DNA of 64,000 nt from a virus, in IMG/VR virus record IMGVR_UViG_3300036832_001295, positions 21,709 through 85,708 of that record; one strand, 5' to 3'. A program made the position numbers and the translations under genes. Below the pieces are notes generated by a model. The model did not search any database, was not told the origin of the DNA, and worked only from the letters and a program-made list of their open reading frames with translations. This document shows, piece by piece, positions 13,742-16,587 of this stretch (positions are counted from its first letter, which is position 1; every line of letters starts with the position of its first letter).

Positions 13742-16587
13742 GGCAGGCAGGGCTTGGCGGGGCATGGTTCGGCGCGGCATGGCACGGTGTGGCAGCCAGG
13801 GCACGGCGCGGCACGGCACGGCCTGGCTCGGCGCGGCAGGCGCGGCGCGGCGCGGCGGGGTCGGGCCCGGCCTGGTGCGGCGAGACATGGCGCGGCGAGG
13901 CAGGCATGGTGTGGCTCGGCCTGGCTCGGCAAGGCAGGGCAGGCACGGCATGGTTGGGCTCGGCGCGGTTGGGCGTCGCAGGGCTTGGCAGGCAGGGCGA
14001 GGTGTGGCGGGTCCAGGCATGGCGCGGCAGGCATGGCCCGGCGCGGCTCGGTACGGCAAGGTGGGGCGTGGCAGGCGGGGTTGGGTTCGGTTTGGCATGG
14101 CGCGGTTGGGCACGGCACGGCTCGGCAGGCGTGGCTTGGCGTGTCGAGGCGGGGCTGGGTTCGCTGGGCCAGGCGGGGCAGGGCAGGCGTGGCTGGGCGG
14201 GTTCCGGCAAGGCAAGGCATGGCCAGGCAGGCACGGCCCGGTTCGGTATGGCACGTCGTGGCCAGACTTGGCTTGGCAGGCGTGGCTTGGTGTGGCACGG
14301 CCGGGTCAGGCACGGTTGGGCGCGGCAGGCTCGGCGAGGCGTGTCATGGCAAGGCTCGGCTAGGTAGGGCACGGCAGCCGAGGCCTGGTGAGGCAGGGCA
14401 ACGCGAGGCATGGCTAGGCCCGGCAGTCGGGGCGTGGCATGACCCGGTGTGGCAGGTCACGGCAAGGCGTGGCGCGGCAGGCACGGCTAGGTCGGGCGCG
14501 GATCGGCGTGGCATGGCGTGGCAGCTAAGGCGCGGCGGGGCACGGCACGGCTGGCTAGGCAAGGCTCGGCCCGGTGCGGCATGGCAGGTCAGGGCAGGCG
14601 TGGCAGGGTGCGGCAGGGTCAGGCGCGGCAGGGCTAGGCGGGGCTTGGCAGGCAAACGTGGTTTAGCTGGGCCCGGCGTGCCGGGGCACGGTGGGGCGTG
14701 GCAGGCAGAGCAAGGCTCGGCTTGGTTCGGCGTGGCATGGCAGGCAGGGCTAGGCAAGGTATGACAAGGCTGGGTGCGGCATGGCGTGGCTGGCATTCGT
14801 GGTTTGGCTGGGCGGGCCGCGGCGGGGCAGGCAAGGCATGGCTTGGCATCGCATGGTGTGGCTCGGCTAGGCGCGGCAGGGCAGGCAGGCGAGGCCGGGC
14901 AGGCAGGGCTGGATTCGGCCGGGCATGGCTTGGCGCGGTTTGGCAGGCAAGGCAGGCATGGTGAGGCACGGCAGGGCACGGCGCGGCTAGGCGCGGCAGG
15001 CGAGGCAGGGCCCGGCTAGTCCAGGTGCGGCGGGTCGCGGCCGGGTTCGGCAGGGCAGGCTCGGTTGGGCTGGGCGGGGCGTGGTTTGGCAAGGCAGGGT
15101 TGGGCACGGCAGGCAGGCAGGGCGTGGTTGGGCTCGGGCGGCTGGGCACGGCAGGGCAGGCACGGCGGGTCCGGGCGAGGCTCGGCAAGGTCCGGCCTGG
15201 CGGGGTAGGGCCTGGCAGGCGAGGCGGGGTGTGGCGGGGCCTGGCGGGTCAAGGCACGTCATGGCGCGGCAGGCATGGCGAGGCAGGGCTTGGTCCGGCA
15301 GGGCACGTCCCGGCTTGGCTTGGCAGGCTCGGCCAGGCGCGGTTGGGCGAGGCATGGCAAGGCAGGGCTCGGCCAGGCAGGCATGGCCCGGCGAGACCCG
15401 GCTCGGCTCGGTGCGGCATGGCGCGGCATGGCAGGCAGGGCGCGGCGCGGCCAGGCGAGGCCGGGCTTGGCTCGGTCCGGCCTGGCGAGGCGAGGCAGGC
15501 ATGGCCCGGTATGGCACGGTGCGGCACGTCCCGGCGTGGTATGGCAGCCGAGGCCCGGCTTAGCGTGGCAGGTCTTGGCGAGGCCTGGTGTGGCACGGCA
15601 AGGCAGGGCGTGGCAGGCATCGCGTGGTGTGGCACGGCCCGGTGGGGCACGGCTTGGCAGGCATCGCACGGCGCGGCATGGCAGGTCGAGGCAAAGCCTG
15701 GCGGGCACGGCAGGCATGGCCCGGTCCGGTTCGGCACCGCACGGCGGGGCATGGCAGGCATGGTTCGGCTTGGCGTGGTGTGGTGGGGCACGGCAGGGCA
15801 CGGCAGGCAGGGCTCGGCGTGGTTCGGCACGGCACGGTGTGGCGTGGCTTGGCGGGCAGGGCTCGGCCGGGTTGGGTACGGCGTGGTCAGGCGAGGCGCG
15901 GCGCGGTGTGGCAGGCAGGGCTCGGTACGGCGGGGCATGGCAGGGTGTGGCTAGGCCCGGCGGGCATGGCATGGCGCGGCAAGTCCAGGCGAGGCGCGGC
16001 GAGGCGTGGCGAGGCGAGGCGAGGCAGGCAAGGCAAGGTCGGGCAGGGCACGGTATGGCCCGGTGTGGTTGGCATGGCGCGGCATGGCAGGCAGGGCGCG
16101 GCAGGCTGGGCTCGGCACGGCTAGGCGCGGCTCGGCAAGGCGTGGTGGGGCAGCCGGGGCTGGGCGAGTTGGGCATGGCCGGGCGCGGCGTGGCAGTCCA
16201 GGCAGGGCAGGACGAGGCAGGGCTAGGCGCGGCTTGGCAGGGCAGGCTTGGCCCGGCGGGGCATGGTTGGGCTAGTCAAGGTCGGGCATGGCAGGCAGGG
16301 CAGGGCTTGGCCCGGCAACGCAGGGCTTGGCCCGGCGCGGCAGGCACGGCAGGGTTAGGCGGGGCGGGGTCCGGCTAGGCCTGGCAGGCAAGGCGGGGCA
16401 GGTCCCGGCTTGGTTGGGCACGGCTCGGCGCGGCAGGCGTGGCAGAGTTCGGCGAGGCTAGGCGTGGCAAGGCCCGGCTAGGCAGCCACGGCGGGGCCTG
16501 GCCAGGCATGGCAAGGTGAGGTGCGGCGCGGCATGGCAGGCGTGGCTTGGCGTGGCACCGTGTGGCCACGCGTGGCACGGCACGGCA
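13742..16587 (+). repeat. GGY-NN pentamer array, block 2 (~56 units plus a few truncated ones, putative guide RNAs)
   Basis: Same grammar as block 1 over 2.85 kb; units of ~7-13 pentamers; no unit seen twice. Confidence 0.9.

What the first reader, a model, noticed from the sequence alone, without database searches (positions are those of the whole stretch)
13839..16022. Guides occur in both orientations, pointing to a dsDNA rather than mRNA target
Most units read best antisense, but several read best in sense: Vsr, SNF2, AAAGRPLAEIAE near 13839 and MIAKQEAEVEEE near 15963. Sense-orientation guides cannot pair with mRNA, implying DNA recognition. No nuclease gene is evident, so transcriptional blocking is the simplest output.
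Basis: inference. Interest (0 to 1): 0.7.

Follow-up and report, generated by a model that had tools for sequence, protein, structure and literature searches.

The report
Phage VIPR guides on both strands
This soil phage carries a very large array of VIPR guide RNAs (a CRISPR-like DNA-silencing system published in 2026), and its guides match target genes in both orientations, which fits the published finding that VIPR binds double-stranded DNA.

Summary
The stretch is part of a 3.3-kb array of GGY-NN pentamers. It lies downstream of a Vipr (RAMP) gene and its accessory gene, in a Bxz1/E3-like actinophage from soil.

All four named decodes are exact. Two sense guides have real targets:
- Vsr: at least 120 genome and 45 viral exact matches, all in frame.
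- SNF2 motif I: 24 matches against 1 control.

One antisense guide (TIR motif) matches 5 of 29 TIR genes; shuffled versions averaged 0.045. The other two named sense guides (13839, 15963) found nothing above chance.

Composition puts about 20% of the 57 guides in sense. This estimate leans heavily on GA-rich guides.

The 2026 VIPR preprints already report targets on both strands, dsDNA binding and silencing from either strand. No nuclease was found at the locus; the accessory protein looks winged-helix-like.

Two things may be new:
- This Vipr clade appears mostly antisense, while more distant clades appear mostly sense.
- The only identified targets are motifs of defence-type gene families.

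The scan has found VIPR arrays before on other DNA.

The parts
11295..11942 (+). vipr gene (215-aa RAMP/Cas7-like protein)
   Evidence: phmmer hit to PDB 36pp_D 'SUSP1 Vipr protein', E 7e-07. The family profile hits the same chain at E 5.1e-11 over profile positions 18-205 of 212. The AF2 model (pLDDT 88) gives 78 Foldseek hits at E<=0.001, with Cas7-type RAMPs on top. R151, E190, W191 and R192 align to SUSP1 R138, D177, W178 and R179 and are invariant in 46 sequences.
11939..12307 (+). 122-aa ORF, a partial paralog of the accessory gene
   Evidence: 51% identity to the N-terminal 45 residues of the 151-aa protein. Found in only 2 of 80 related loci. No Pfam or PDB match.
12304..12759 (+). accessory gene of this Vipr family (vap-like, 151 aa)
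   Evidence: A homolog lies directly after vipr in 66 of 80 related loci. phrog_15946, unknown function. AF2 pLDDT 92. No Foldseek hit at E<=0.001. Residues 1-108 give weak winged-helix matches, Z 5.0-5.8; residues 109-151 form a long helix.
12839..13260 (+). guide array, part 1 (8-9 guides)
   Evidence: GGY-NN pentamers broken by 4-nt GGCA units.
13292..13738 (+). 148-aa ORF whose N-terminus looks to me like a signal peptide; it splits the array and is probably not part of the system
   Evidence: Open frame read from the sequence. No family match. No homolog in the 80 related loci. The signal-peptide reading is by eye, not by a tool.
13741..16598 (+). guide array, part 2 (about 50 guides)
   Evidence: Parse. 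Same strand as vipr. The genes beyond 16613 are on the opposite strand and converge on it.
13839..13902 (+). 12-unit guide, sense-leaning by composition, no target found
   Evidence: Decode. Orientation score +3.1. 3 hits against 2 control in 121 genomes.
14128..14185 (+). Vsr-motif guide in sense orientation, with an internal 4-nt unit (GGTT)
15218..15271 (+). SNF2 motif I guide in sense orientation (18 of 20 read bases match the common motif)
15326..15379 (+). TIR-motif guide in antisense orientation (16-18 of 20 read bases)
15963..16026 (+). 12-unit guide with the strongest sense lean by composition, no target found
   Evidence: Orientation score +7.0. 0 exact matches in viral contigs. 1 hit against 0 control at up to 3 mismatches in 101 genomes.

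Best explanation
The stretch is the main part of a 'staggered' VIPR guide-RNA array of a soil actinophage.

Inferred from the preprints, not shown here: the + strand is transcribed and cut into guides of about 8-12 GGY-NN units. Vipr protomers hold each GGY and present each NN. The NN pairs bind one strand of double-stranded DNA, skipping every third base (the codon wobble), and the bound filament blocks transcription.

Shown here: because the target is duplex DNA, a guide can be written in either orientation relative to the gene. Both kinds sit in this one array. Vsr and SNF2 guides equal the coding strand; a TIR guide is its complement. By composition, roughly four in five guides are of the antisense kind.
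For: Vipr homology and fold. GGY-contact residues conserved.

Pentamer grammar on the vipr strand. The same grammar lies downstream of vipr in 62 related loci.

1-nt-skip, wobble-phased matches:
- Vsr: 121 of 121 and 45 of 45 in frame.
- SNF2: 22 of 24 read AD(E/D)VGLGKTIE in frame, 24 hits against 1 control.
- TIR: 5 of 29 loci, all in the antisense wobble frame, shuffles mean 0.045.
- Family identity of target ORFs: Vsr 4 of 4, SNF2 3 of 3, TIR_2 3 of 3.

Per-guide orientation scores are over-dispersed compared with units shuffled among guides (z 3.3, p 0.001 here; z 8.3 in relatives).

Mixture estimate is 0.18-0.22 sense. Pure antisense is worse by 10.5-11.4 lnL and pure sense by 60-86.

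No self-target above shuffles. No nuclease family or fold at the locus.

Published mechanism.
Against: Only 3 of about 58 guides have identified targets.
- Six other guides or guide cores gave 0 exact matches in viral contigs.
- Guide 15058 gave 0 hits in 151 genomes.
- Guides 13839 and 15963 stayed at chance.
- No further guide rose above shuffles in 2.3 Mb, 0.75 Mb or 0.39 Mb of local sequence.

The exact TIR pattern had only 2 non-TIR matches in metagenome contigs. Its TIR matches carry 2-4 mismatches.

The Vsr guide has an internal 4-nt unit and may be broken.

The composition evidence for a sense fraction depends largely on GA units: leaving out GA/TC gives 0.01-0.12.

No RNA data exist. 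Only one DNA soil run holds the stretch. Transcription, processing, DNA binding and silencing are therefore all unshown for this locus.
Confidence: 0.85

Rival explanations
1. Orientation is not neutral. In this Vipr clade the antisense majority is selected or acquired directionally, for example because antisense guides can also bind the mRNA or because one strand blocks RNA polymerase better. Sense guides would then be the minority exception.
For: Sense fraction is 0.18-0.22 here and 0.26 (0.14-0.41) in the 9 closest loci. It is 0.76 and 0.83 in 21 and 32 more distant loci, each scored with its own codon model. The contrast survives every leave-out variant. The preprint reports that the filament can pair with ssRNA, though incompletely.
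Against: The inference rests on composition alone. The three validated guides here are 2 sense and 1 antisense. The published GFP assay found either strand effective. Different target classes, not strand preference, could shift composition.
Confidence: 0.2
2. The system targets mRNA through its antisense guides only. The sense-reading guides would be decayed, decoy or chance look-alikes.
For: Composition favours antisense for most guides. The Vsr guide carries an internal 4-nt unit. Guides 13839 and 15963 have no target.
Against: The Vsr and SNF2 sense matches are far above chance and wobble-phased. Distant relatives are mostly sense and hit rival phages' genes in the sense frame. Vipr homology to a protein shown to bind dsDNA.
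Confidence: 0.05
3. The tract is a plain G-rich pentanucleotide repeat (slippage product, G-quadruplex or R-loop DNA) and the peptide readings are chance in low-complexity sequence.
For: Degenerate 5-nt periodicity and strong GC skew. Most guides have no match anywhere searched.
Against: An adjacent Vipr gene with conserved synteny in 62 loci. The two free positions are highly variable while GGY is held in 527 of 596 units. Three guides match conserved coding motifs while shuffled versions give about 0.
Confidence: 0.02

Closest known systems
VIPR systems, reference type II of Escherichia phage SUSP1 and the Pseudomonas fulva prophage (bioRxiv 10.64898/2026.04.26.720920 and .720927)
   Same: A homologous Vipr protein with conserved GGY-contact residues. 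GGY-NN pentamer guides on the vipr strand. A small accessory gene. Targets read with one skipped base that falls on the codon wobble. Targets on both strands. No nuclease.
   Different: No invariant 3' tail between guides. About 57 guides, against four vrRNAs at the SUSP1 locus and at most 15 in the 62 related loci parsed here. The array is split by an unrelated ORF. The identified targets are Vsr, SNF2 and TIR motifs, not satellite or prophage regulators. The accessory protein could not be matched to vap1-6 because the supplements are closed.
'Staggered' vrRNA arrays (legend of fig. S18 of 10.64898/2026.04.26.720920; legend only, figure not held)
   Same: Guides abut without spacers. A one-base register shift (the 4-nt unit GGCA) marks where one guide ends and the next begins.
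   Different: Whether the published example has the same GGCA break, the same Vipr clade or a similar size could not be seen.
Class 1 CRISPR Cas7 backbone filaments (type I Cascade, type III Csm/Cmr)
   Same: RAMP fold; the top structural matches are Csm3/Cas7. One protomer per repeat unit of the guide, with periodic flipped bases.
   Different: No CRISPR repeats, no cas1/cas2, no Cas6, large subunit or nuclease. A 5-nt guide period read against a 3-nt target period.
dCas9/dCas12 CRISPR interference
   Same: RNA-guided binding of duplex DNA that blocks transcription without cutting.
   Different: The preprint reports no strand dependence and no PAM for VIPR. The guide is noncontiguous.

Membership tests
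VIPR system | A Vipr protein: minimal RAMP homologous to SUSP1 Vipr | tested here: met
   phmmer E 7e-07. Family profile E 5.1e-11 over nearly full length, the only PDB hit. Cas7-type fold matches.
VIPR system | Residues that hold GGY (SUSP1 R138, D177, W178, R179) | tested here: met
   They align to R151, E190 (D to E), W191 and R192, all invariant in 46 family members. The residue roles are taken from preprint .720927.
VIPR system | Guide genes of tandem GGY/NN pentamers beside vipr | tested here: met
   527 of 596 units are GGY-NN, on the same strand, starting about 80 nt after the accessory gene.
VIPR system | Targets obey the 1-nt skip rule, with the skipped base on the codon wobble | tested here: met
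   Met for 3 guides: Vsr, SNF2, TIR. No target was found for the rest.
VIPR system | An accessory (vap) gene next to vipr | tested here: met
   A homolog follows vipr in 66 of 80 related loci. Identity with published vap1-6 could not be tested (supplements closed).
VIPR system | No self-targeting at 80% or more NN match | tested here: met
   Tested at 85% or more on the 85.7-kb record with the arrays masked: 1 hit of 14/16 for one 8-unit guide, against 1.6 in shuffles. The record is about 62% complete.
VIPR system | Guides expressed, processed and bound by Vipr; dsDNA binding; transcriptional silencing | not testable with these tools
   No RNA run holds the stretch. These need wet-lab work.
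VIPR type II (SUSP1-like vrRNA architecture) | Each vrRNA ends in an invariant structured 3' tail (pseudoknot) | tested here: not met
   Guides follow one another with only a 4-nt unit between them; no non-pentamer spacer is present. This fits the 'staggered' architecture instead. No RNA folding was run.
CRISPR-Cas | Repeat-spacer array with cas adaptation and effector genes | tested here: not met
   No repeats of CRISPR length or period. No Rfam family in the window. The neighbours are lysis, portal and tail genes.

The most novel reading that the evidence does not exclude
Guide orientation in VIPR is a clade-level trait rather than neutral. This Vipr clade writes about three quarters or more of its guides antisense to genes, while other clades of the same family write about three quarters in sense. 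This would point to directional guide acquisition or a strand-dependent (possibly mRNA-assisted) mode of silencing.

In addition, this phage aims at least some guides at conserved motifs of gene families that often belong to bacterial defence (Vsr, SNF2 helicases, TIR). That would be RNA-guided anti-defence, which the main texts of the preprints do not mention.
Probability: 0.3. Interest if true: 0.6.

Novelty: new member of a known kind. Interest (0 to 1): 0.3.

Why it matters

The locus is still useful for three reasons:
- It is an unusually large natural guide set: about 57 guides, four times the largest of 62 relatives.
- Both orientations can be compared inside one transcript.
- It belongs to a clade whose strand bias seems opposite to that of its relatives.

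If that bias is real, it constrains how guides are made or how silencing works. Neither question is addressed in what I read of the preprints. The Vsr, SNF2 and TIR guides would make RNA-guided silencing of host defence directly testable.

Tried and rejected
1. I first read the tract as a pentanucleotide microsatellite or G-quadruplex tract. I dropped this once the Vipr gene and the preprints were found.

2. Coding potential. All six frames carry stops, and the ORFs of 300-370 aa there are by-products of G-richness.

3. Rfam found nothing in the window. tRNA search found only tRNA-Val at 37464.

4. Target searches that found nothing:
- Exact viral-contig scans of guides 14074, 15058 and 15963, and of cores of 15547, 15434 and 15855: 0 each.
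- Exact TIR pattern in metagenome contigs: 2 stretches of one sequence, not in a TIR frame.
- Guide 15058 at up to 2 mismatches in 151 genomes: 0.
- Guide 13839: 3 against 2 control. Its three hits fall in unrelated contexts.
- Guide 15963: 1 against 0 at up to 3 mismatches.
- Guide 14074 has an 18/20 antisense hit in L236, in an ORF of unknown function. I judged it unconvincing.
- Guide 14902 has 5 local hits with inconsistent peptides.
- All window guides against 754 kb around SNF2 and TIR loci: only the three known guides rise above shuffles.
- Relatives' guides against 1.65 Mb: 4 hits against 9 shuffled.

5. No window guide is shared with the 363 relatives' guides.

6. The promoter and terminator scan was uninformative.

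7. No RNA holder was listed for the stretch; there is one DNA soil-metagenome run.

8. The host was not identified.

9. The VIPR type (I-VII) could not be assigned. Figures S10, S17 and S18 and data S2-S4 were not seen because the supplements are closed. They may hold strand counts, similar arrays or similar targets.

10. Papers, and how much of each I saw:
- 10.64898/2026.04.26.720920: outline, Results, methods sections 20, 26 and 27, and passages.
- 10.64898/2026.04.26.720927: outline and Results part 1.
- 10.64898/2026.10.15.759431: outline and passages only.
- The statement that defence-gene targets are not in print rests only (one search listing and word finds in two main texts).
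Full report
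WHAT IS THERE

The window is bases 21709-85708 of an 85.7-kb IMG/VR virus record, estimated about 62% complete. One soil-metagenome DNA run holds the stretch. The gene content is that of a large actinophage:
- a portal at 17842-20667(-);
- endolysins at 10134-11102(-) and 16797-17591(-);
- collagen/YadA-like tail fibres at 1204-8927(-).

The most similar phage-record DNA found is the portal gene of Rhodococcus phage E3 and of Mycobacterium phages such as Catera and Spud, at 65-66% identity.

The finding's coordinates lie in a G-rich non-coding tract (G 49%, C 26%). In it GGC recurs every 5 nt (274 spacings), 10 nt (91) or 4 nt (55). A dynamic-programming parse gives 596 five-base units, of which 527 are GGY-NN. 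The tract is cut into 77 segments, 65 of them ending in the four-base unit GGCA. Of the 77, 57 hold 7 or more pentamers, most often 8-10. The tract has two parts, 12839-13260 and 13741-16598. They are separated by an unrelated 148-aa ORF whose N-terminus looks to me like a signal peptide.

WHAT IT IS

A note of this scan (e1-6119722) called the locus 'VIPR-like'. That led me to three 2026 preprints.

The 215-aa ORF at 11295-11942 matches the PDB chain 'SUSP1 Vipr protein' (36pp_D). The E-value is 7e-07 with the single sequence and 5.1e-11 over almost the full length with a profile of 46 family members. It is the only PDB hit. Its AF2 model (pLDDT 88) gives 78 Foldseek hits at E<=0.001, led by Csm3 and type VII Cas7.

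The residues that the structural preprint says hold the GGY bases (R138, D177, W178, R179) align to R151, E190, W191 and R192. All four are invariant in the family alignment.

A 151-aa ORF at 12304-12759 has a homolog directly after vipr in 66 of 80 related viral loci. It is therefore the family's accessory gene. The 122-aa ORF before it is a local partial duplicate.

Related loci carry the same grammar downstream of vipr on the same strand: pentamers with 4-nt GGCA or GGCC breaks. I found 178 relatives and kept 80 loci. Of those, 62 yielded 369 guides, and none has more than 15 guides.

The abutting guides with a one-base register shift fit the 'staggered arrays' mentioned in the first preprint. 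I saw only the legend of fig. S18. They do not fit the tailed type II vrRNAs.

THE OBSERVATION

Vsr guide. About one match would be expected by chance; this is my estimate from 4^20 against about 1.2e12 positions, not a tool result. Every one of the 121 and the 45 matches is in frame in an ORF of median 166 or 157 codons. They read VFVDGCFWHG in 120 and 42 cases. Four of four sampled ORFs are Pfam Vsr.

SNF2 guide. At up to 2 mismatches it has 24 matches in 201 Actinomycetota genomes, against 1 for the backwards control. Twenty-two of the 24 read AD(E/D)VGLGKTIE in the sense frame. It also hits 7, 15 and 4 times in local sets where shuffles give 0, 1.0 and 0.05.

TIR guide, a test of an antisense guide. 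I fetched TIR_2 genes from 101 Actinomycetes genomes and used 29 loci; one locus from an unpublished genome was left out. The guide reaches 80% or more NN match in 5 of the 29. All five are on the strand opposite the gene, wobble-phased, at (W/Y)D(V/L)F(I/L)(S/C)HA(S/W)(E/D)D. Two hundred shuffles gave mean 0.045 and maximum 1.

So both orientations are validated inside one array.

AGAINST

The other two named sense guides have no target.
- Guide 13839: 3 hits against 2 control.
- Guide 15963: none exact in viral contigs, and 1 against 0 at up to 3 mismatches.

Six further guides or cores gave no exact viral match. Guide 15058 gave none in 151 genomes. No other guide rose above shuffles in 2.3, 0.75 or 0.39 Mb of local sequence.

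The exact TIR pattern has only a chance-like match in metagenome contigs. The Vsr guide contains an internal 4-nt unit and may be damaged.

STRAND STATISTICS WITHOUT TARGETS

I scored each guide by the log-ratio of codon position 1-2 dinucleotide frequencies against their reverse complements.
- With the phage's own genes as model, the ML sense fraction is 0.22 (CI 0.09-0.39). Seven guides lean sense by 2 or more nats, 17 lean antisense, and 33 are undecided.
- With 37 Actinomycetota ORFs as model it is 0.18. Sets simulated as all-antisense reach that value in 1 of 300, and the estimator is unbiased on simulated mixtures.
- Scores are over-dispersed relative to units shuffled among guides (z 3.3, p 0.001; relatives z 8.3). 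Each guide therefore tends to be coherently one way or the other.
- The estimate is fragile. Without GA/TC it drops to 0.01-0.12; without AG/CT it rises to 0.36.

This supports 'most antisense, several sense' as a tendency, not as a count.

THE INTERPRETATION

The reasoning is sound and matches print. The first preprint states that:
- inferred targets lie on both strands, 'consistent with DNA targeting';
- the complex binds 1-nt-skip dsDNA under competitor;
- either strand silences GFP;
- no PAM is needed.

The structural preprint shows an R-loop triplex that requires DNA as the third strand.

At this locus I found no nuclease. The ORFs after vipr have no Pfam or PDB sequence match. The accessory protein's confident model has no Foldseek hit at E<=0.001. 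Its only weak matches are winged-helix folds, Z 5.0-5.8, plus a long C-terminal helix. This is like the DNA-binding vaps that the preprint describes for types II, VI and VII.

Expression, processing, binding and silencing remain inferred for this locus.

BEYOND THE FINDING

1. Strand bias by clade. The nine closest loci (53-57% Vipr identity, 78 guides) give a sense fraction of 0.26 (0.14-0.41), like the window. The 21 distant high-GC and 32 lower-GC loci give 0.76 and 0.83, each scored with its own codon model. The contrast survives all leave-out variants. In the distant group, real hits on other relatives' loci are mostly in the sense frame. One guide matches the gene after vipr in 11 loci.

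2. Target class. The three identified targets belong to gene families that often serve bacterial defence; this is my background knowledge, and the role of the matched genes was not tested here. Seven of the SNF2 hits lie within 8 kb of vsr genes. The main texts of the two biological preprints name satellites, prophages, other VIPR systems and viruses as targets. They do not contain the words restriction (as enzyme), methyltransferase, helicase or TIR. Their supplementary tables could not be read.

3. Other follow-ups of this scan report defence-motif guides in VIPR arrays of other phages.

VERDICT

The locus is a new, unusually large member of a known kind.

Noticed in passing
window 13292-13738 (+): A 148-aa ORF whose N-terminus looks to me like a signal peptide sits inside the guide array and splits it into an 8-9-guide part and a part of about 50 guides. 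It has no family match and no homolog in the 80 related loci.
   Followed up: partly
window 14128-14185: The Vsr guide has a 4-nt unit (GGTT) in its middle, yet the decoded motif runs on in phase across it (C-F-W). This looks like a recent one-base loss in the scaffold, which might break the guide.
   Followed up: no
window 12839-16598: The first variable base after each GGCA break is A in 34 of 57 guides. The boundary therefore often reads GGCAGGCA. This may be a processing or start signal rather than target information.
   Followed up: no
L157-L236 (related viral loci): Composition-based sense fraction is about 0.26 in the nine loci closest to the window and 0.76-0.83 in more distant ones. 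This is a possible clade-level strand bias of VIPR guides.
   Followed up: partly
L216:11179 guide; hits near 10850-10915 in L173, L175, L178, L185, L187, L194, L201, L203, L209, L220, L228: One relative's 10-unit guide matches 18-19 of 20 read bases in the gene right after vipr in 11 other phages. This is a guide aimed at rivals' VIPR accessory gene, as the preprint describes for other clades.
   Followed up: partly
window 11939-12307 and 12304-12759: The accessory gene is preceded by a 122-aa ORF that duplicates its first 45 residues (51% identity). Only 2 of 80 relatives show anything similar.
   Followed up: partly
window 12839-16598 compared with L157-L236: About 57 guides here against at most 15 in any of 62 related arrays.
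   Followed up: partly
L313-L357 (viral contigs): The exact Vsr motif pattern occurs on 45 viral or proviral contigs, so the Vsr-type target could sit on rival mobile elements as well as on host chromosomes.
   Followed up: partly
window 3855-8927 (-) and 1204-3417 (-): A 1690-aa virion or tail-spike-like protein with 51-bp (17-aa) repeats, and a 737-aa protein with collagen and YadA-head repeats. These are probably tail fibres.
   Followed up: no
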